From a virus, in the IMG/VR virus record IMGVR_UViG_3300001685_000001: 64,000 nt of DNA; one strand, given 5' to 3'. Shown here piece by piece: positions 35,593-43,481 of this stretch. How positions within the stretch are numbered: the first letter of the stretch is position 1; every line of letters starts with the position of its first letter. Position numbers and translations under genes: made by a program. Below the pieces are notes generated by a model. The model was not told the origin of the DNA. It worked only from the letters and a program-made list of their open reading frames with translations, and did no database searches.

Positions 35593-36780
35593 TTAAGTAA
35601 ATTTTATATAGAACGTTGCTTTTCTACCGTTTTCATCTAGCCATAAAAGTTTTTGATGTGCTTTAGATGTTAGCCGAGCGTCCTTAGCGTAATCATCAGT
35701 GCCACCAAATGAGCCGTTCATGATTAAATCAACATTGTGAATTTCGTTTTCATAGTTCTTGTGGTAATGTCCAATAAAAACAGCAGTAGGGAAGCGTTTA
35801 GTCATCATTGTTAAGTCTTGTACAACCTTACCTAAGCCATCTAAATGACCATGTACAGCAAAGTAATCACGACCAAGAATATTAGCTACTATCATCTCAC
35901 TGTCAATATCATTATTATAGAAAATAACATTTTCATGTTTCTCTAGTCTCATTGCCATGTACCAAACAATAAAACTGTGGAAGCTTTCAGTTTTCACTTC
36001 TTCTTCTTTTCTTGCAGCTACTCTATCGTGATTTCCTTTTACATTGTAGTAGTGAACTTTTTCAAATGTGTTGGCTAATACTGATACCAATTCAGATAAC
36101 GCTTCGGCAACTTTTTGAGTTGACTTAACTGCATCTTCAGTTTCAGTTAGCTTGGTCATGCGATGAATAACACCACTGATTGCATCTCCAAGCTCAAATA
36201 CATGAATCTCTTTTGTATTTGTTACTTTTTGATATTCTAATACTTCTAGTGTTAGTTGGCTTAATCTCTCATAGAATACATCATTATTATATTTGTTCCA
36301 GTGGTTATCAGTTACCATACCCATGTGCAAATCACTTAGTAATAGTGTTAAAACACCTTTGGAATCTTCTCTTAGAATTGGTTTAATCCATTCAAGAGGT
36401 TTCTTAGTATTCATGTCTTCCTTTATAGAAGCAAGCATTTCTTGTAGTAAATGGTCTAATCTACCTTCATGGCGAAGATATGATTTATATTCACGCTTCT
36501 GGTCTTGCATTTGTATTTTAGCTATTTCTAATTTCTTGCGTTCTTCTTTTAGCTCTAGTAATATTTCATCTGTTTCTGCTTGGTTTTCACTAGCATATTC
36601 TAATCCGTCTGCAAAGTTTTGGAACCATTTGCGGTATGCAGATTCACCAAAGTTTTGACCTGTTTCTTCATTAATAAGCTCTGCAACTTGAATCCAAGTG
36701 AGATTCAGTAGAGCCTTATTGGAACAAATTCTAATCTTATAATCCGTTAGCGACTCATCTGAAAGACGTTTTGTATTCAT
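35593..36780 (-). CDS. Calcineurin-like metallophosphoesterase with N-terminal HTH/coiled coil (YonJ-like)
   Basis: SDLH, GDAISG, GNHD, HGH and GHYH motifs. Confidence 0.85.
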   Translation of the reverse strand: MNTKRLSDESLTDYKIRICSNKALLNLTWIQVAELINEETGQNFGESAYRKWFQNFADGLEYASENQAETDEILLELKEERKKLEIAKIQMQDQKREYKSYLRHEGRLDHLLQEMLASIKEDMNTKKPLEWIKPILREDSKGVLTLLLSDLHMGMVTDNHWNKYNNDVFYERLSQLTLEVLEYQKVTNTKEIHVFELGDAISGVIHRMTKLTETEDAVKSTQKVAEALSELVSVLANTFEKVHYYNVKGNHDRVAARKEEEVKTESFHSFIVWYMAMRLEKHENVIFYNNDIDSEMIVANILGRDYFAVHGHLDGLGKVVQDLTMMTKRFPTAVFIGHYHKNYENEIHNVDLIMNGSFGGTDDYAKDARLTSKAHQKLLWLDENGRKATFYIKFT

Positions 36781-36784
36781 ATAA

Positions 36785-37012
36785 TCAATCCTCAAACTCT
36801 TCATCTACAGGAACTTCTAACGGGAGTGGTTCTAATTCAGATGCTTCATTAATGGTAAAGTTAACTAGTTTATCTTCACCTTCAAATTGCTTAAAGGTAT
36901 CAGATAAAACGTATGTTCCAACCAATTCGCCTTTTTTATATTCTCTTATTAAGTTTTCTTCCCATGAGATTTGACAGTCTTTAAATGCGTAATTCAATGT
37001 TTGTTTTGCCAT
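36785..37012 (-). CDS. YonK-like small protein
   Basis: Size, synteny and resemblance to SPbeta YonK (recalled). Confidence 0.6.
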   Translation of the reverse strand: MAKQTLNYAFKDCQISWEENLIREYKKGELVGTYVLSDTFKQFEGEDKLVNFTINEASELEPLPLEVPVDEEFED

Positions 37013-37088
37013 TCTTTTATCTTCTCCTTTTATTCAACGTTAATGTTGCCATTAACTAATTTTAATAAAACCTTACTTTTATGTATAT

Positions 37089-37182
37089 GAGAGTCCTAAA
37101 AAGAACTCTCTAAGCACTAACAAGGGGAGGTGCTATGCTTATGACCTTTGAGAAGGAAGGTGGAGATAACTCCATAGTATTA
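37089..37182 (-). ncRNA. Candidate C-rich (anti-Shine-Dalgarno-like) small RNA in the tRNA trailer, ending in a hairpin
   Basis: CTCCACCTTCCTTCTC and loop CACCTCCCCTT, then GAGAGTTC-N6-GGACTCTC. Confidence 0.4.
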
Positions 37183-37258
37183 TGGTGACTCAGGAAAGAC
37201 TTGAACTTCCGACACCCTGAGCTTCAATCAGGTGCTCTACCAACTGAGCTACTAAGTC
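37183..37258 (-). tRNA. tRNA-Phe(GAA), unusual G37 C38
   Basis: 76-nt cloverleaf, CCTGA-TTGAAGC-TCAGG, encoded CCA. Confidence 0.92.
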
Positions 37259-37262
37259 ATTT

Positions 37263-37345
37263 TGGTCAGGAATGTTAATTTCGAGTTAACGACCCCCAGC
37301 TTCTGATTTGTTATGCTGGTGCTCTGCCATCTGAGCTAATTCCTG
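37263..37345 (-). tRNA. tRNA-Pro-bodied tRNA-like RNA with a 14-nt anticodon loop
   Basis: Acceptor CAGGAAT/ATTCCTG, A73 and CCA are identical to the tRNA-Pro; stem CCAGC/GCTGG encloses ATAACAAATCAGAA. Confidence 0.8.
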
Positions 37346-37349
37346 TTGT

Positions 37350-37434
37350 TGGCACGAGTTGAAGGAGTTTAACCTCTTGAAAACGGGTTTGGAATCCGTC
37401 AGCATGTACACACGCTTTTAATTCTCTAACTCGC
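37350..37434 (-). tRNA. Degenerate tRNA-Trp(CCA)-like gene
   Basis: ACGGA-TTCCAAA-CCCGT, G73, CCA; ~9-nt insertion before the D arm; T loop TTAAACT. Confidence 0.6.
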
Positions 37435-37439
37435 ATAAT

Positions 37440-37513
37440 TGATACCCCATAGGAGTTTCGAACTCCTGATTTCGCATAGAAAGTGCGATGTCTTACCACT
37501 TGACCAATGGGGC
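37440..37513 (-). tRNA. tRNA-Glu(TTC), unusual T37 A38; 3' end reads ATCA (no encoded CCA)
   Basis: TCGCA-CTTTCTA-TGCGA; T arm AGGAG-TTCGAAA-CTCCT. Confidence 0.88.
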
Positions 37514-37516
37514 ATA

Positions 37517-37593
37517 TGGTCAGGAATGTTGAACTCGAATCAACGACCCCTAGCATCCAAAGCTAGTGCTCTACCAAACTGAGCTAATTCCTG
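37517..37593 (-). tRNA. tRNA-Pro(TGG), unusual A37
   Basis: C1-G72, A73, CTAGC-TTTGGAT-GCTAG, CCA. Confidence 0.92.
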
Positions 37594-37601
37594 TAATAAA
37601 T

Positions 37602-38129
37602 TTATGAAGAATATCTCCATTTAAATCCACCTGCTGTCTTTCGGGTGTCGCCTCTCCAGTCAATACCTCTTACAGCATATAAGATAGTGCTAGGAGATTT
37701 TATATTATTCTTTTTTGATGCTTCAGCCATAGATGGATAGGAAGACATATAGTTGCCATCTAAATCCAATTTATCTACGCTTCTTTGGTTCGATTTTTTA
37801 CCAAGTAAGCCATTCTCTTTTTGATGTTTTAAGTTTTCTGCCTGTGTAATAGCCTCTAAATTACTTATCTTGTTATTTAGTTTATTTCCATCAATATGAT
37901 TTATTTGCATTCCAATACACTTGCTTCCAAAATAAATCACACCTAAAACTTGATGCACTTGTAAGAGTTTCTTTTTAACTTTCACTCGTAAGTATCCAGT
38001 TGAACTACAAATAGTACCATTTGTTCCTTTTGGAGTAGTGATAATACCTTCAATAATGTCATAATTGATATTTTCAAGGTTACTACTTATAAAATTGTAC
38101 ATATCAATAGACATTCCAGCATTACTCAT
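37602..38129 (-). CDS. Free-standing HNH homing endonuclease (HNH_3 + NUMOD1-like)
   Basis: VHQVLG...INHIDGNKLNNKISNLE; C-terminal DLDGN...YPSMAEASK. Confidence 0.85.
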   Translation of the reverse strand: MSNAGMSIDMYNFISSNLENINYDIIEGIITTPKGTNGTICSSTGYLRVKVKKKLLQVHQVLGVIYFGSKCIGMQINHIDGNKLNNKISNLEAITQAENLKHQKENGLLGKKSNQRSVDKLDLDGNYMSSYPSMAEASKKNNIKSPSTILYAVRGIDWRGDTRKTAGGFKWRYSS

Positions 38130-38182
38130 AATTCCATCTCCTGTTATGTGTCAATAAATAGTTTTTAATAGAATATAAAGTG

Positions 38183-38502
38183 TTGTTAGCTAACCAGCCA
38201 AGAGGCATCCAATAGAGTCAATAAACAACCACTCATAAGCCTTTAATCTTGGATTTAATCGAAGTTTTATTCTTAAAAACTAAACGTTGAGTTCATAAGA
38301 ACTTTGAACCTTAACCTTTGAATCTTAAACTTTGAAATTTGAGCTTTTATCCCATATACGCTCTCTGAGTGTAATATAAAGTACATTCGCTTATCCTTAT
38401 TTGGATTCAAATTTTCATCTGTTAGATGTAAAGTTAATTTGGAGAGCTTTACCCTGCTCTCCGATAGGGTGTTTAGTCCATTAGATTTCGATTAACTAAC
38501 AA
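38183..38502 (-). ncRNA. Candidate ~320-nt structured ncRNA (closing helix, pseudoknot, heptamer-repeat domain)
   Basis: 13-bp end-to-end helix, nested 8-bp and 6-bp helices, H-type pseudoknot, no ORF. Confidence 0.75.
38262..38348 (-). repeat. Tandem 7-nt repeats (consensus YAARGTT), 7 + 4 units
   Basis: AAAAGCT CAAATTT CAAAGTT TAAGATT CAAAGGT TAAGGTT CAAAGTT [10 nt] CAACGTT TAGTTTT TAAGAAT AAAACTT. Confidence 0.85.
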
Positions 38503-38519
38503 TGTTATTTAACTAATTA

Positions 38520-39143
38520 TTAATCTTCAATTGTAATTCTTGTAATCGTGTTGCTCTCTGAAAGCGTGAAATCCACTTCCATGTTGAAGTCCTCGATACT
38601 CTTAACCAACTCATTAATCTGTTTCTCCAAGTTAATTGGGTCAATGAAAGTAGCCTCGTTGTCTGCTTTAAAAGCCTTCACAATGTCTTCATGTGACTGA
38701 GCATTAACTTTACCTTCTTTACCGAACAGCGTTTCCAAGTGAGAGTCTAAACGAGCTTTCATCTCATTGTTAATACGGTCAACATGATTTACCACCTGAG
38801 TATAAGTTGAGCGCATTTTACTTAGTAATTGCTCTTCATAAGAAATAGAAGTCTTTCTCTCAATTGCTTCAGCTACCGTCATTTTAACTCCTGCTACCTC
38901 AACAACAGTTGTTGCATTGGAAAGTACAATTGCAGATTTAATTGCGTTTCTGCGTTTTAACAAATCTTTTACTGATTGATAATCTGATTTGGCACGTTTT
39001 TCAACATCTTCTACTGAGCTATATCCAGTAGGCAATTTCTTACCAACTGAGTTACTTCCTAGAACAGCCTCATTGATTGAACGATTAATGCGTGAGTCTA
39101 ATAGCTTTAATTCTGCTAAGCCTCTTGTAATAGTCATTTCCAT
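38520..39143 (-). CDS. Coiled-coil protein resembling the DIP1984 (septicolysin-like) family
   Basis: MTITRGLAELK...IVLSNATT...MTVAEAIERK...VDFTLSESN; matches the recalled LAEAL/N..T/D..L...N pattern. Confidence 0.6.
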   Translation of the reverse strand: MEMTITRGLAELKLLDSRINRSINEAVLGSNSVGKKLPTGYSSVEDVEKRAKSDYQSVKDLLKRRNAIKSAIVLSNATTVVEVAGVKMTVAEAIERKTSISYEEQLLSKMRSTYTQVVNHVDRINNEMKARLDSHLETLFGKEGKVNAQSHEDIVKAFKADNEATFIDPINLEKQINELVKSIEDFNMEVDFTLSESNTITRITIED

Positions 39144-39381
39144 GTGATATCAATCTCCTTTTATTCGCTGATTGCCTAAATGACAACCACATTCCTTACT
39201 GGATATGTACGTGTAATAGTTAGGCATCTTGCAATGATGATTAGCTATTACACTATTTAATTATATGTGATTAAGTAGTTAAACGTAAACCTGTTTTTCC
39301 CTTTTTGGAAATATTAGTGAGGCAAGGGAGAGGAACCTCACTAACTATATTTTGCTTATGTGACTTACATTGTTAACTTTA

Positions 39382-39702
39382 TTATTCTGCTAGTGGTGCT
39401 GCTTTAAGTGCATCTTTAACTGTTTTAGAAATTGCTACTTTAGCTGCATAGTGAGCTGGTACTGTAGTTGGTGTTGGTAGAACCGCTGGGTCTTCACCTT
39501 GAATTCCTGCATAAGTGCGTTCTGCTTTTACATCAACTTTTAAGTTTCCTAATGCTCCAAGTGGTACTCCTACTTGCTGTTCTGTAACTACACGAACGAT
39601 AGTTCCGATTACTGTATCGAAAATTTCCTTAGCGTTTACTTGAGTTGTTCCTAAATCTGTTGCTACCTCTTTAATTAAATCTTTTGTTGTAATTTTTGAC
39701 AT
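39382..39702 (-). CDS. hup: HU/IHF-like DNA-binding protein (YonN/TF1-like)
   Basis: TKDLIKEVA...GNLKV...AERT...PAHYAAKV.ISKTVKD. Confidence 0.85.
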   Translation of the reverse strand: MSKITTKDLIKEVATDLGTTQVNAKEIFDTVIGTIVRVVTEQQVGVPLGALGNLKVDVKAERTYAGIQGEDPAVLPTPTTVPAHYAAKVAISKTVKDALKAAPLAE

Positions 39703-39847
39703 TTTATTATGTCTCCTTTTCCTTATATTCGTGCAATTTTTGTGAAAAATATGCCAAAAACTATAGTTTTTATATGTTTTTTAATGAATTTCGAAGGTTT
39801 TTAAAGAAAACCAACAAAATTAAATTTAATATTAGTTTAAATAGTTA

Positions 39848-40198
39848 TTAATTGTAATCATTGTCATCTACATCTGCAATCCCAATAGCTGTTTGGTTAT
39901 CAATGCTTAGAGATGAGAAGGTTGAATGTCTTTTAGAACCTTTATCCATCTCTTTTTGTTTCTTATGGGAAAGGATATCTAATTCTTTTTCTTCTTTAGT
40001 GAGATAGTAAGCTATCATATCCATGAGAGTTTTTGTGTAATCTTTGTTCCAAGTGTATCTAAAGTACTCTTCAACTGTCATTACTTCTTCATGAAACTCA
40101 ATGCTATCTATTAGTATCATATCAACAACAACTTTTCTTTCTTCTATAGGGATACTCATATCCATATCATATGATTTATGTGGTAAATGTAATTTCAT
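39848..40198 (-). CDS. Hypothetical protein
   Basis: ORF; start after GAGGAG. Confidence 0.7.
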   Translation of the reverse strand: MKLHLPHKSYDMDMSIPIEERKVVVDMILIDSIEFHEEVMTVEEYFRYTWNKDYTKTLMDMIAYYLTKEEKELDILSHKKQKEMDKGSKRHSTFSSLSIDNQTAIGIADVDDNDYN

Positions 40199-40285
40199 TA
40201 TTATTCTCCTCATTTATGAGAAAAGTACCCTATATAGTTTAAGGCGGTTACAAGGCACTTTTCTGGGGTGTTTCTGACGTAATGG

Positions 40286-40816
40286 TTATCTACATGTTTT
40301 ACAGATGCTGTGTAATCCACTTTTATTCCGCAAATCATCGGAATAAAATTCATTTGTTGCTGGTAAATCCTTTTTGCATCTAATACAATTTTTAGTTTTT
40401 AAATCTAACATATGAACATAAGTAGTTTTTCTCCAATTTCGTTCATTGGCATTTGCAATGTCTCTGATAATCTTGTTTAAACGCTGTCTAATACTTGTTT
40501 CATCTATTAGACCTAAACTGTCTGCTATTTCTTTCATTGTGTAACCTTGCTCAATCATTTCTAGTATTTTCATTTGTTCTTTATTAAAGTTGCATTCAGC
40601 GATTAATATATCTAGGGAAGCATACGTGGCAACAACTTCCTGATTTAAATCAGCGATTTCGCCAGCTTCTAAATAGAAGTTGTTTGTATTGAATCCAGAG
40701 TACTTATCGTACTTATATCTATATTCTACTAATAGTTGAACAACATCAATGTCTGAAAGAGTTAGGTCTTTGTAAAACATTTCTTTACTATGCAAATCTA
40801 CTTTTACGCTTCCCAT
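40286..40816 (-). CDS. Sigma region-4-like HTH + Cys4 zinc finger; candidate late regulator
   Basis: QMKILEMIEQGYTMKEIADSLG...IRQRL; CIRC...ICKTC. Confidence 0.65.
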   Translation of the reverse strand: MGSVKVDLHSKEMFYKDLTLSDIDVVQLLVEYRYKYDKYSGFNTNNFYLEAGEIADLNQEVVATYASLDILIAECNFNKEQMKILEMIEQGYTMKEIADSLGLIDETSIRQRLNKIIRDIANANERNWRKTTYVHMLDLKTKNCIRCKKDLPATNEFYSDDLRNKSGLHSICKTCR

Positions 40817-41043: not shown

Positions 41044-41060
41044 AATTGGAGAGAAGTAAA

Positions 41061-43481
41061 ATGGCAAAAGAGTATAGCATGAAAGTAAAGGTAACAAAGG
41101 TAATGTTCTATGACAATGATAGTATGTACGGTATATTTGGTTGCACCCCAGTTGAATATACACCAGACATTGAAAAGAACAAGTATGGTAATTTCAGTCT
41201 AAAAGGTAACTGTCGTAGACTGAGTGAGGGAGAAGAGTACACTATTGAGTTTGAGGGTTCGTTCCCAGATGCTAAATTTGGCAACTACTACAATCTAATT
41301 AAGGTGGAACAGGAGAAGCTAGATACATTAGAAGCTCAGCACAAGTTTCTAAAGGCAATTGTAACACCATATCAGTTTGATTCACTGGTAAATGCATATC
41401 CAAATGATATGATTATTGATTTAATTACAAACGATGAAGTGGATGTAAACATGACAAAGGGAATTAAATCTTATTCATTGGCACAAATTAAAAACAATAT
41501 AATTAAAAATAAAGAAATAGAAGAACTGATTGTTGAATTAGAATCTATTAATATCACAGCTAAAGCAATCAAAAAGATAGTGGCTCATTATGGAACAGCA
41601 GAGAAGGCTCTACACGCTGTGCGAACGAATATCTACTCCCTGTGCGATGTGTCGGGATTTGGATTCAAGAAGGTAGATGGTTTTGCTTTAGAACGTGGAG
41701 AAGACCCAAAGGGATACAAGCGTACTTTCTATGCTTTGAAATATGTATTGGAGAATGCTGGTCAACAAGGTCACACTTGGATATTTGAAGAAGAGGCTTT
41801 CCAAAATGTAAATGGACTCCTAGACTTATATAGTCCAGTATTGCGTGAGATAATAACCAAGGTGTATCAAGATGAAGAGTTCTATGTTATTAAAGATAAG
41901 GTGTCACTGCGTAAGTATTTTAAGCAAGAGGCTGGAATACTAATCCACTTAATGCGCATACGTGATAGCTATGAAGCTCCTTATGAGTTAGATATTGACA
42001 ATGAAATAAAGAACCAAGAGAGTTTGAATAATATTACTTATTCAGATGAACAGAAAATAGCTATTAAAGAGGCAATAGAGAATGGAGTATATATTTTGAA
42101 TGGTAAGGGTGGGGTTGGTAAAACAACTATTATACAAGCAATATTGGGTATCCTATCACACCAATCACATGCTGCTTGTGCACTATCAGGCAAAGCTTCA
42201 AACATATTAACCAACAAAGGTCTAAATGGCATGACAATGCATCGCCTATTGGGAACAAGTAAAGTGACTAGAGGCTTTGCACATACAGAGTTCTTCCCAC
42301 TACCTGAGAAAATAATTGTTCTAGATGAAGCATCAATGGTTAACGTGGGACTTGCTTATAGTTTAATTCAGGCAATTGCTAATGGCTCTAAGCTTATTAT
42401 TGTTGGAGATAGTGGTCAATTAAGTGGAATAGGACAAGGAGATATGTTAAGAGACCTTCTGGCTACTAATTTCTTCGCTAAGAGAGAGCTAGTACATGTT
42501 CATAGACAAGCTAAAGATAGCGGAATACTTGATATTGCTAACCGCATTCGTGAGGGTGAACAAGTTACTACTTTCAATGGTTCAGGTAAAAGCGCACATG
42601 GCATTAAAAAAGACCAGTTGGTTATTACTTATAAGGATAGAACAGACCTTGCAAATGATATCCGTCATATTATTGATAGTTATAAAAATAAAATGAACTC
42701 AGCAGAAGACATCATGAATTTTCAAATACTTGTAGCAAACAAGGATAAAGGAGACATATCTACAACTGCTATTAACAAGTATGCTCAATCTGTTTTCAAT
42801 AAATCTATTAAGCAGGGATTAAAGTATGGAGCATTAGAGTTTAAAGAAACAGACAAAGTAATGGCTAAAGGAAACGTTTATGAAATTACAGTATTTAGAG
42901 ACCTAGAAGCATACAAGGAGAAAAATGTTTATTGGGGTCTCATGAAGAAGTTTAAGGACTTAAGAGAACAAAAAAACACCTGTGAACTATATGAGCAAGA
43001 AATGGCTAGAGAAGATATAGAGGAGCTACTTAGTGTTGAAAAAGAGTTGGAGAGATTCAGAGGTAGCATTTACACTGAAGACCTATTCAATGGAACGCTG
43101 GGAATAGTTAAGCAAGTCGTAACGGAAGAGAAAGAGCTTCTAATTGAATTTGAAAATATAAAAGGGTTGGTCGCCATTTCTCAAAATGGTTTAGACATAA
43201 TCGACTTGGCATATTGCATGACGATTCACAAGAGTCAAGGGTCAACGATTAAAACGGTTATCGTAGCTATTGACTTTGTTGCATTCAAGCTGTTGACACG
43301 TCAATTAATATACACAGGTATTACTCGTGCAAGTGATAAGTGCATCCTACTAGCTGAGAACAATGCTCTGCATCAAGCAATAGATACAGATAATAGTGGT
43401 AACAGACAAACATTCTTAGCTGGTTTAATCAGAGGATATCAGCAGAAATTGGAGAATGAAGCGAGACAGCTAGAAGCTTAA
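41061..43481 (+). CDS. recD: RecD2-like SF1B helicase
   Basis: GKGGVGKT, DEASMV, GDSGQL, AYCMTIHKSQGS, YTGITRA. Confidence 0.92.
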   Translation: MAKEYSMKVKVTKVMFYDNDSMYGIFGCTPVEYTPDIEKNKYGNFSLKGNCRRLSEGEEYTIEFEGSFPDAKFGNYYNLIKVEQEKLDTLEAQHKFLKAIVTPYQFDSLVNAYPNDMIIDLITNDEVDVNMTKGIKSYSLAQIKNNIIKNKEIEELIVELESINITAKAIKKIVAHYGTAEKALHAVRTNIYSLCDVSGFGFKKVDGFALERGEDPKGYKRTFYALKYVLENAGQQGHTWIFEEEAFQNVNGLLDLYSPVLREIITKVYQDEEFYVIKDKVSLRKYFKQEAGILIHLMRIRDSYEAPYELDIDNEIKNQESLNNITYSDEQKIAIKEAIENGVYILNGKGGVGKTTIIQAILGILSHQSHAACALSGKASNILTNKGLNGMTMHRLLGTSKVTRGFAHTEFFPLPEKIIVLDEASMVNVGLAYSLIQAIANGSKLIIVGDSGQLSGIGQGDMLRDLLATNFFAKRELVHVHRQAKDSGILDIANRIREGEQVTTFNGSGKSAHGIKKDQLVITYKDRTDLANDIRHIIDSYKNKMNSAEDIMNFQILVANKDKGDISTTAINKYAQSVFNKSIKQGLKYGALEFKETDKVMAKGNVYEITVFRDLEAYKEKNVYWGLMKKFKDLREQKNTCELYEQEMAREDIEELLSVEKELERFRGSIYTEDLFNGTLGIVKQVVTEEKELLIEFENIKGLVAISQNGLDIIDLAYCMTIHKSQGSTIKTVIVAIDFVAFKLLTRQLIYTGITRASDKCILLAENNALHQAIDTDNSGNRQTFLAGLIRGYQQKLENEARQLEA

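What the first reader, a model, noticed from the sequence alone, without database searches (positions are those of the whole stretch)
38183..39143. Candidate RNP system: DIP1984-like coiled-coil gene followed directly by a large structured repeat RNA, inserted beside the tRNA cluster
Seen: a 207-aa all-helical ORF whose stop codon is followed 17 nt later by ~320 ORF-free nt that fold into a closed multi-domain structure with a 7-nt repeat tract. The pair lies between the HU and YonK homologues, upstream of an HNH gene and five tRNA-like genes. Established: phage tRNA clusters counter tRNA-targeting defences, and repeat-binding ring or filament proteins (TRAP, Hfq) read fixed-period RNA repeats. 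From memory, unverified: similar coiled-coil genes occur near RNA-repair (rtcB) loci. Inference: the protein oligomerises on its own cis-encoded RNA, one protomer per heptamer. The complex could act in tRNA protection or repair, as a nuclease decoy, or in translation control.
Basis: partly seen in the sequence, partly recalled or inferred. Interest (0 to 1): 0.92.

Follow-up and report, generated by a model that had tools for sequence, protein, structure and literature searches.

The report
Phage protein gene with dedicated heptad-repeat RNA
Right after a 207-residue helical protein gene, this phage encodes a 320-base, doubly knotted RNA with about a dozen evenly spaced 7-base units; the same gene-plus-RNA pair follows every relative I could check (phage T5, Bacillus phages, prophages), matches no catalogued RNA family, and is probably an undescribed protein-RNA particle.

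Summary
A 207-aa helical-protein gene (38520-39143, minus strand) is followed 17 nt later by a 320-nt element (38502-38183). The element is closed by a 13-bp stem and carries a 7-nt repeat tract.

It is a real RNA gene. Forty-five of 50 other homologue loci carry the element directly downstream on the gene's strand, including T5, Bcp1 and Jenst. Four of the five without a model hit still show the closing stem, the heptads, or both by eye.

Covariation over 39 sequences is strong: score 0.56 against 0.18 for shuffles. It supports a double pseudoknot. G-U pairs fit only the gene's strand.

No Rfam 15 family matches, and I found no paper.

The tract holds 7 + 4-5 units of U-N-A-A-A-G-N. Positions 4-5 change in all units together, clade by clade, which suggests a co-evolving reader.

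The protein's best fold neighbour is DIP1984 (PDB 3KDQ). It is predicted to form a homodimer. The "tail fiber" label is unsupported.

Best reading: a protein-RNA particle made from one transcript. Binding is inferred, not shown, and the function is unknown.

ARAGORN and Rfam find three tRNAs, not five. This scan met the same module before on other DNA (T5-like phages, a bacterium).

The parts
38520..39143 (-). Gene for the 207-aa helical partner protein (PHROG 1491). It has a DIP1984-like fold and is predicted to form a homodimer.
   Evidence: It matches phrog_1491 at E = 1.3e-68 over its full length. No Pfam or NCBIfam family passes its cut-off. The AF2 model has pLDDT 91. PDB 3kdq is the top hit in Foldseek (prob 0.96-0.98) and in VIA-align (Z = 9.6). 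The dimer scores ipSAE 0.64 against 0.00 for the best control.
38183..38502 (-). 320-nt structured non-coding RNA that starts 17 nt after the stop codon.
   Evidence: Model R1 scores 250.9 bits here, and this is the only copy in the window. The same element lies 3' of the gene in 45 of 50 other loci. Covariation is 0.564 against 0.181 for shuffles, and none of 500 shuffles reaches it. No Rfam match.
38490..38502 (-). P1, 5' strand of the closing stem (UUGUUAGUUAAUC).
   Evidence: It pairs with 38183-38195. All 13 pairs show changes on both sides, and 98% of cells are paired in 39 sequences. There are 62 G-U cells against 10 non-pairs, so the RNA lies on this strand.
38183..38195 (-). P1, 3' strand of the closing stem (GGUUAGCUAACAA).
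   Evidence: Sequence conservation stops sharply at this boundary in L001 and L002.
38471..38486 (-). 5' strands of the long-range helices P2 (AUCUAAU, 38480-38486) and P3 (UAAAC, 38471-38475).
   Evidence: P2 pairs with 38207-38213 and P3 with 38222-38226. P2 has 6 and P3 has 5 pairs with changes on both sides. They are 71% and 81% paired in an alignment that was not fitted to them.
38441..38470 (-). 5' H-type pseudoknot. S1 is ACCCU/AGGGU and S2 is GGAGAGC/GCUCUCC.
   Evidence: The same architecture, spelled with different letters, appears at this place in most members (for example T5: ACCUCG/CGAGGU with CAGCGGUU/GACCGCUG). Twenty of 39 beat 95% of their own shuffles. The 11 close relatives confirm it by eye.
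38352..38440 (-). Variable hairpin domain, whose length and sequence differ between relatives.
   Evidence: The alignments show large indels here.
38263..38351 (-). Heptad tract: 7 units of U-Y-A-A-A-G-N, a spacer of about 10 nt, then 4-5 more units.
   Evidence: Conservation has period 7. The tract is 92-95 nt long in most of the 39 sequences. No complementary partner sequence exists in the RNA, and RNAalifold drops the hairpin it first predicted here. The motif changes in all units together, by clade.
38251..38262 (-). UCGAUUAAAUCC, the most conserved block of the family.
   Evidence: It is nearly invariant in 39 sequences.
38198..38252 (-). 3' domain. P5a is CCAAG/CUUGG, P5b is AGGC/GCCU and the P6 hairpin is GAGU/ACUC. 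It encloses the 3' strands of P2 and P3, which makes the second pseudoknot.
   Evidence: P5a is 99.5% paired, P5b 90% and P6 93%, each with 4 pairs changed on both sides.
39260..39289 (-). Promoter-like site (TTTACG, 18 nt, TATAAT) upstream of the gene. Tentative.
   Evidence: This is only a consensus match, 10 of 12. The number of such sites in the region does not exceed that in shuffles.

Best explanation
This is one copy of a widespread two-part phage module: a small helical protein, probably a dimer, and its own non-coding RNA.

The two are made from one transcript. Only 17 nt separate the stop codon from the RNA, which leaves no room for a promoter.

The RNA folds into a compact core. A 13-bp closing stem and two long-range helices cross a 3' hairpin domain, and there is a separate 5' H-type pseudoknot. 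This core holds out a tract of about 90 nt that has no pairing partner.

The tract carries 11-12 phased heptads, U-N-A-A-A-G-N.

Inferred: several copies of the partner protein bind along this tract and read U1, A3, G6 and the clade-specific positions 4-5. This would give a discrete, stable and abundant protein-RNA particle early in infection.

The particle's role is unknown. The recurrent position next to phage tRNA arrays suggests stable-RNA, tRNA or translation biology, or counter-defence.

Shown: the RNA gene, its fold, its strand, its strict linkage to the protein gene, and its presence in RNA libraries of a T5-like phage.

Inferred: protein-RNA binding, the stoichiometry and the function.
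For: Linkage:
- Model R1, built from 11 close relatives, hits directly 3' of the gene on the gene's strand in 45 of 50 other loci. These include T5_ev219, Bcp1 and Jenst.
- Of the five loci without an accepted hit, L034, L035 and L052 show a closing stem and heptads by eye. L104 shows a heptad tract. L091 has too little DNA after the gene.

Structure:
- 80.9% of cells are paired, against 57.8% in shuffles.
- The covariation score is 0.564 against 0.181, and none of 500 shuffles reaches it. Slid controls score 0.08-0.12.
- The 5' pseudoknot recurs with different letters.

Strand and transcription:
- G-U pairs fit only the gene's strand.
- Intrinsic terminators follow the element in L096, L097, L043, L099 and L107.
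- In an RNA-seq run laid on a T5-like locus, contigs cover the gene and the RNA. Summed depth falls more than 100-fold just past the predicted RNA 3' end. This is contig data, so it is suggestive only.

A reader of the repeats:
- Conservation has period 7 and the tract length is constant.
- The motif switches in all units together: AAAG to AAUG, AUAG or AGAG. The switches follow the clades of the protein tree.

The protein:
- The homodimer prediction scores ipSAE 0.64 against 0.00 for the best control. In calibration, that mark was reached by 20 of 30 true homomers and 1 of 23 monomers.
- A true DUF6847 gene in a Brevibacillus genome is also followed by a terminator-bounded element of about 195 nt, with a closing stem and G-N-A-A-U-G-N heptads.
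Against: - No experiment or computation here shows that the protein touches the RNA. The complex tool cannot take RNA.
- Heptad type follows the protein phylogeny, so shared descent could produce the pattern without any contact.
- Some members (Bcp1, L005, and both copies in L054) replace much of the tract with hairpins. The heptads are therefore not indispensable.
- Many invariant residues of the protein lie in the predicted dimer interface rather than on an obvious basic surface.
- The C-terminal half of the protein is acidic.
- Homology to DUF6847 is not supported by sequence.
Confidence: 0.6

Rival explanations
1. The RNA works on its own, as an RNA-only machine or scaffold like ROOL, GOLLD or raiA, or as a ribozyme. 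The upstream protein would only be co-expressed, or would help folding transiently.
For: The core is elaborate: a double pseudoknot with an invariant UCGAU.AAAUCC block. That is more than a protein landing pad needs. Some members lose much of the heptad tract but keep the core. Large ornate phage RNAs near tRNA genes are known to act without a dedicated protein (PMC12286853).
Against: Linkage to one protein family holds over very deep divergence. The change of the heptad motif in all units together calls for a trans-acting reader. A fold-level relative of the protein, a DUF6847 gene, also carries a heptad RNA.
Confidence: 0.2
2. The element is a cis-acting 3' UTR of the protein's mRNA. It would protect against 3' exonucleases, or be an autoregulatory site where the protein binds its own message.
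For: The RNA begins 17 nt after the stop codon with no room for a promoter. Terminators follow it in relatives.
Against: A conserved fold of 320-360 nt with two pseudoknots far exceeds known 3' stabilisers. In Jenst another RNA (skipping-rope, RF02924) lies between the gene and the element, and in L006 the gap is 244 nt. L054 carries two tandem copies. Contig depth over the RNA is 2-3 times that over the coding part in the T5-like run, which hints at a separate stable species (weak).
Confidence: 0.12
3. The element acts at the DNA level: a miniature transposon with terminal inverted repeats, or an iteron array or replication origin.
For: Both strands fold about equally well (z = -3.6 and -4.4). 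The ends form an 11-13-bp inverted repeat. The 7- and 14-nt repeats resemble iterons.
Against: There is one copy in 64 kb, and it always sits at the same place relative to one gene. Many compensatory changes keep pairing while the sequence drifts. P1 has 62 G-U cells, which would be A-C mismatches on the other strand. Contigs of RNA libraries cover it in a T5-like phage.
Confidence: 0.02
4. The heptad tract is a decoy. Its row of 7-nt units would mimic anticodon loops or nuclease sites and soak up a host RNase or a tRNA-cutting defence enzyme.
For: The unit length equals that of an anticodon loop. The module often lies beside phage tRNA arrays, and such arrays are known to counter tRNA-cutting defences (10.1101/2023.03.15.532788). 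These points are inference only.
Against: No stems close the units into loops. The motif varies by phage clade rather than matching a given tRNA. Nothing here tests it.
Confidence: 0.05

Closest known systems
TRAP with the trp leader, and HutP with the hut leader (Bacillus)
   Same: A row of short, evenly spaced single-stranded RNA motifs, 11 in the case of TRAP, is read by the identical subunits of a homo-oligomer. This is from my own knowledge of these systems.
   Different: Those motifs are triplets ((G/U)AG or UAG) with 2-4-nt spacers inside an mRNA leader. The readers are beta-rich rings, and the outcome is transcription attenuation. Here the period is 7 and the motif is U-N-A-A-A-G-N. 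The tract sits inside a pseudoknotted stand-alone RNA, and the candidate reader is a helical bundle encoded next door.
CsrA/RsmE with the sponge RNAs CsrB/RsmZ
   Same: A non-coding RNA carries many copies of one short motif and binds several dimers of one small protein.
   Different: There the GGA motifs sit in hairpin loops at irregular spacing, the genes are unlinked, and the protein fold differs. No GGA periodicity occurs here.
Ro60 (Rsr) with Y RNAs (YrlA, RF02553)
   Same: A protein gene is accompanied by a dedicated structured RNA. Such pairs also occur in phages and near tRNA-like elements.
   Different: Ro60 is a HEAT-repeat ring with a vWA domain, and Y RNAs have a tRNA-like module. 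Rfam's YrlA model does not match this element.
ROOL (RF03087) and GOLLD (RF01998) ornate RNAs
   Same: They are large, intricately folded RNAs of phages and prophages, often near tRNA genes, with unknown function (PMC12286853).
   Different: They are 500-800 nt long, have no dedicated partner protein, and form RNA-only oligomers. Their models give no match here at E up to 10.
DIP1984 of Corynebacterium diphtheriae (PDB 3KDQ) / Pfam DUF6847 ('septicolysin'-named clusters)
   Same: It is the best structural neighbour of the protein in two independent aligners. AFDB clusters named Septicolysin also appear. One true DUF6847 gene that I inspected is also followed by a heptad-bearing RNA-like element.
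   Different: The window protein gives no Pfam hit, and 3 of 37 homologues reach at best E = 0.003. The profile comparison is not significant. DIP1984 is about 150 aa against 207 aa here. The alignment rmsd is 8.6 A, and Z = 9.6 is within the range that helical bundles reach by chance.

Membership tests
Any Rfam 15 family (4227 models) | A covariance-model match at or near the gathering score | tested here: not met
   The permissive scan (E up to 10) of 36500-40500 finds only the three tRNAs. The best hit on the element is SpF10 at 23 bits against a gathering score of 60. Six relatives, including T5, Bcp1 and Jenst, have no family on the element either.
PHROG 1491 (labelled 'tail fiber protein') | A full-length HMM match | tested here: met
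   E = 1.3e-68, residues 2-206 on profile positions 4-210 of 211.
PHROG 1491 (labelled 'tail fiber protein') | A tail-fibre fold or a position in the structural module, which the label implies | tested here: not met
   The model is a helical bundle with a small sheet. No fibre or beta-helix chain appears among the top PDB hits. The gene lies among HU, sigma-like, phosphoesterase and tRNA genes. In T5 it lies beside the RNase H gene and other non-structural genes, near the tRNA genes.
DUF6847 / DIP1984 (PF20935) | A Pfam HMM score of at least 27 bits | tested here: not met
   The window protein has no hit at E up to 0.1. Three of 37 homologues hit, at best E = 0.003. hhalign against a true member gives a probability of 0.6%.
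DUF6847 / DIP1984 (PF20935) | The same fold as PDB 3KDQ | tested here: inconclusive
   3kdq is the top hit in Foldseek (prob 0.96-0.98, E = 8e-3). It is the only chain of 48,161 with Z of 8 or more (Z = 9.6, 150 of 152 residues, rmsd 8.6 A). For helical bundles a Z below about 13 can be non-specific.
TRAP- or HutP-type repeat RNA target | (G/U)AG or UAG triplets separated by 2-4 nt | tested here: not met
   The period is 7, with conserved U1, A3 and G6.
Miniature inverted-repeat transposon | Several dispersed copies, terminal inverted repeats, and no strand-specific pairing | tested here: not met
   There is a single copy in the window, at a fixed place after one gene. G-U pairs occur on one strand only.
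   ARAGORN and Rfam each find three: Pro (tgg), Glu (ttc) and Phe (gaa).

The most novel reading that the evidence does not exclude
A new class of phage ribonucleoprotein. Dimers of a DIP1984-like helical protein would line up on a sequence-coded track of 11-12 heptads, one site per unit. A doubly pseudoknotted RNA core would hold the track in a closed loop. The heptad 'code' (AAAG, AAUG, AUAG, AGAG) would co-evolve with the protein. The recognition would be periodic like that of TRAP, but by a different fold, and the particle would serve phages as varied as T5, Bastille-like and SPbeta-like viruses in tRNA-linked host takeover or counter-defence.
Probability: 0.25. Interest if true: 0.9.

Novelty: categorically new. 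Interest (0 to 1): 0.8.

Why it matters
The protein occurs in 740 of 50,697 phage records, and the RNA follows it in every relative with enough downstream DNA. Phage T5, a classic model, is among them, as are Bacillus Bastille-like phages and SPbeta-like prophages.

A conserved, pseudoknotted RNA of 320-360 nt with its own protein has therefore sat unannotated in hundreds of sequenced genomes, under a misleading 'tail fiber' label. Its presence in RNA libraries of a T5-like phage hints that it may be abundant.

It offers three things:
- A new RNA class for structural work.
- A possible new way for a protein to read RNA in a 7-nt register.
- A testable lead to what phages do around their tRNA arrays.

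T5 and Bacillus genetics make it directly testable.

Tried and rejected
- **Exact-pattern scan.** A scan of viral contigs with the conserved 3' block gave five new loci (L036, L037, L039, L040, L042). They turned out to be chance matches.
- **Own genome.** No whole genome is held for this window. DNA-level searches of the phage collection found no close relative of the window.
- **Protein family libraries.** NCBIfam gave nothing for the protein. Pfam gave only sub-threshold helical noise.
- **PDB by sequence.** This gave only weak hits: 2ap3 at E = 0.32. The profile search found HslU I-domain helices at E = 0.006 and 3kdq at E = 0.15.
- **Heptads pairing as a hairpin.** RNAalifold predicted this on three sequences. 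It dropped the helix with 11 sequences, and the tract has no complementary partner.
- **Rad, the T5 anti-retron protein.** It is a different protein of 189 aa with a primase/TOPRIM-type domain.
- **PA5oct ncRNA002.** No homologous gene lies upstream of it, so it is not this module.
- **RIP-seq runs that hold the T5 stretch.** They contain long contigs spanning the whole region and say nothing about this protein. They probably belong to the DRT9 study (PMC12483538), which is my inference.
- **Literature.** Seven full-text searches found no description of the RNA, of DUF6847 or of DIP1984.
- **Model R1 on the DUF6847 locus L113.** No significant hit, so that RNA is a different family.

Full report
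**1. What is in the window**

On the minus strand a 207-aa ORF runs from 39143 to 38520. It has an AGGAG ribosome-binding site about 12 nt before the ATG. A promoter-like site lies at 39289-39260, but it is only a consensus match.

Seventeen nucleotides after the stop codon a 320-nt stretch begins (38502-38183). Its two ends pair: UUGUUAGUUAAUC with GGUUAGCUAACAA. As RNA it folds with z = -3.6 on the gene's strand and z = -4.4 on the other strand. Folding energy alone therefore cannot separate an RNA from a DNA inverted repeat.

Tandem Repeats Finder sees a 14-nt period with 2.6 copies at 38300-38336.

- an HU homologue at 39382-39702;
- an HNH endonuclease at 37602-38129;
- YonK at 36785-37012.

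ARAGORN and Rfam each find three tRNA genes (Pro, Glu, Phe), not five.

**2. The element is conserved with the gene**

I searched viral contigs, metagenomes and species genomes with the protein. This gave 102 loci.

In the close relatives (54-71% protein identity) the same element follows the stop codon. These are prophages or contigs of Heyndrickxia, Lederbergia, Peribacillus, Bacillus haynesii, B. paralicheniformis, Brevibacillus and Ureibacillus.

The boundaries are sharp. Conservation begins at the first base of the closing stem and ends at its last base. The flanks beyond are unrelated.

In five relatives an intrinsic terminator follows the element on the gene's strand.

I built a covariance model (R1) from 11 of these sequences. 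In 45 of 50 further loci it finds the element directly downstream of the gene, on the gene's strand. These loci include phage T5_ev219 (E = 3e-7), Bacillus phage Bcp1 and Brevibacillus phage Jenst.

The five loci without an accepted hit are:
- L091, which has too little DNA after the gene;
- L034, L035 and L052, which show a closing stem and heptads on inspection;
- L104, which gave only a weak hit and shows a heptad tract on inspection.

One locus, L054, has two tandem copies. The window has a single copy.

**3. It is an RNA, on the gene's strand, with a complex fold**

I counted a hand-derived structure on the 39-sequence alignment A7. That alignment had not been fitted to most of the structure:

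| Measure | Observed | Control |
|---|---|---|
| Cells forming a standard pair | 80.9% | 57.8% in shuffles |
| Covariation score | 0.564 | 0.181 in shuffles (0 of 500 reach it) |
| Covariation score, partners slid 1-3 columns | - | 0.08-0.12 |

Per helix:

| Helix | Cells paired | Pairs changed on both sides |
|---|---|---|
| P1 | 98% | 13 of 13 |
| P5a | 99.5% | 4 of 5 |
| P5b | 90% | 4 of 4 |
| P6 | 93% | 4 of 4 |
| P3 | 81% | 5 of 5 |
| P2 | 71% | 6 of 6 |

The 3' strands of P2 and P3 lie inside the loop closed by P5. This makes a pseudoknot.

A second pseudoknot, of H-type, lies near the 5' end. It recurs at the same place with different letters: ACCCU/AGGGU with GGAGAGC/GCUCUCC here, and ACCUCG/CGAGGU with CAGCGGUU/GACCGCUG in T5. 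Twenty of 39 sequences beat 95% of their own shuffles.

P1 alone holds 62 G-U cells against 10 non-pairs. These would be A-C mismatches on the other strand, so the functional strand is the gene's.

**4. Evidence of transcription**

I laid an RNA-seq run on a T5-like locus. More than two thousand short contigs cover the gene and the RNA. Summed depth falls from about 2.6e5 to 3e3 and then to zero just past the predicted 3' end.

These are contigs, not reads. They show presence in an RNA library and hint at the 3' end, nothing more.

**5. It is not a catalogued RNA**

Permissive Rfam 15 scans of the window region and of six relatives give no family on the element. Seven full-text literature searches found no description. 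The library lacks most subscription journals, so this is not proof of absence.

**6. The repeat tract**

Between the variable hairpins and the invariant block UCGAU.AAAUCC lies a tract of 92-95 nt. Its length is nearly constant across the family. Per-column conservation in it has a 7-nt period, with autocorrelation 0.58, 0.46 and 0.32 at lags 7, 14 and 21.

It reads as seven units of U-N-A-A-A-G-N, a spacer of about 10 nt, and four or five more units. Nothing in the RNA is complementary to it. RNAalifold drops the tentative hairpin once 11 sequences are used.

Positions 4-5 change in all units together, and the change tracks the clades of the protein tree:
- AAAG in most members;
- AAUG in one clade (L004, L050, L055, L101, L102);
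- U-U-G in L072;
- AUAG in L034 and L035;
- AGAG in L006.

Such change across all units at once is what a trans-acting reader that touches every unit would produce. Because it follows phylogeny, it is suggestive and not proof.

Bcp1, L005 and L054 replace part of the tract with hairpins, so the tract is not indispensable.

**7. The protein**

It matches PHROG 1491 over its full length (E = 1.3e-68). That family's 'tail fiber' label has no support:
- The AF2 model (pLDDT 91) is a helical bundle with a small sheet.
- The gene lies in non-structural neighbourhoods.

No Pfam or NCBIfam family passes its cut-off.

The best structural neighbour is PDB 3KDQ, an uncharacterised C. diphtheriae protein. 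The support is:
- Foldseek gives prob 0.96-0.98.
- VIA-align gives Z = 9.6 over 150 of 152 residues, the only chain of 48,161 with Z of 8 or more.
- AFDB clusters named Septicolysin also appear.

Sequence evidence for homology to DUF6847 is weak.

A homodimer is predicted with ipSAE 0.64 against 0.00 for the best control. The symmetric interface runs along the long helices.

tblastn finds the protein in 740 phage records. Most are Salmonella and Escherichia T5-like phages. Others are Pseudomonas, Vibrio, Klebsiella, Erwinia, Bacillus and Lactococcus phages.

**8. Context**

Twelve of 15 loci scanned have at least one tRNA gene within 3 kb of the gene, and some have 8-17. The link to tRNA arrays therefore recurs across unrelated phages.

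In the closest relatives L001 and L002, however, the module sits in the same HU/YonK neighbourhood without tRNAs or HNH. Here the tRNAs and the HNH gene look like later additions beside the module, not the reverse.

**9. A check outside the family**

A true DUF6847 gene in a Brevibacillus genome (183 bits) is followed by a terminator-bounded element of about 195 nt. It has a closing stem, a hairpin resembling a tRNA T-arm, and G-N-A-A-U-G-N heptads. It matches no Rfam family.

This is a single sequence and its fold is not significant (z = -1.5).

**10. Reading**

The RNA gene, its fold, its strand and its strict linkage to the protein are established here.

The protein binding the RNA is the most economical explanation of three facts: the linkage, the periodic tract and the change of the motif in all units together. 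I put it at about 0.6. One site per heptad is plausible but untested.

As I recall from established work, protomers of pneumovirus nucleoprotein cover 7 nt each. That shows such a register is physically reasonable.

The function is unknown. Roles related to tRNA or translation, or to counter-defence, are only suggested by position.

**11. Earlier notes of this scan**

The scan has met this module before on other DNA, in several T5-like windows and one bacterium. A later check of some of those notes says 'part of it fell', with the observation kept at 94 in 100. I could not see which part. My own tests reproduce the observation.

Noticed in passing
window 37602-38129 (-): An HNH endonuclease gene with a weak NUMOD1 match starts 53 nt after the RNA's 3' end. 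It is absent from the closest relatives, so it looks like a homing-endonuclease insertion. A promoter-like site (38201-38172) overlaps the RNA's closing stem.
   Followed up: partly
window 37013-37182 and 37259-37440 (-): Two non-coding gaps of about 170-180 nt flank tRNA-Phe. They are not tRNAs by ARAGORN or Rfam. I did not fold or compare them.
   Followed up: no
L111 (Brevibacillus phage Jenst) 3625-3702 and 4160-4434: A skipping-rope RNA (RF02924, 67.6 bits) lies between the protein gene and the heptad RNA. A BsrG-type RNA (RF01412, 119 bits) follows the heptad RNA.
   Followed up: no
L054 3198-3581 and 3711-4093: There are two tandem copies of the RNA after one protein gene. In both, most of the heptad tract is replaced by hairpins.
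   Followed up: partly
L113 (Brevibacillus genome) 1936-2215: A true DUF6847 gene is followed by an element of about 195 nt. It has a closing stem, a hairpin like a tRNA T-arm (GAGGGUUCAAAUCCCUC), G-N-A-A-U-G-N heptads and a terminator. It matches no Rfam family.
   Followed up: partly
window 40286-40816 (-): A 176-aa protein gives weak sigma-70 region 4 / LuxR-type helix-turn-helix matches (E = 5e-4 to 5e-2). It may be a phage sigma-like or transcription factor upstream of the HU gene.
   Followed up: no
window 41046-43481 (+): An 811-aa ORF on the opposite strand carries a P-loop motif (GKGGVGKT). By eye it looks like a RecD-type helicase. I did not scan it.
   Followed up: no
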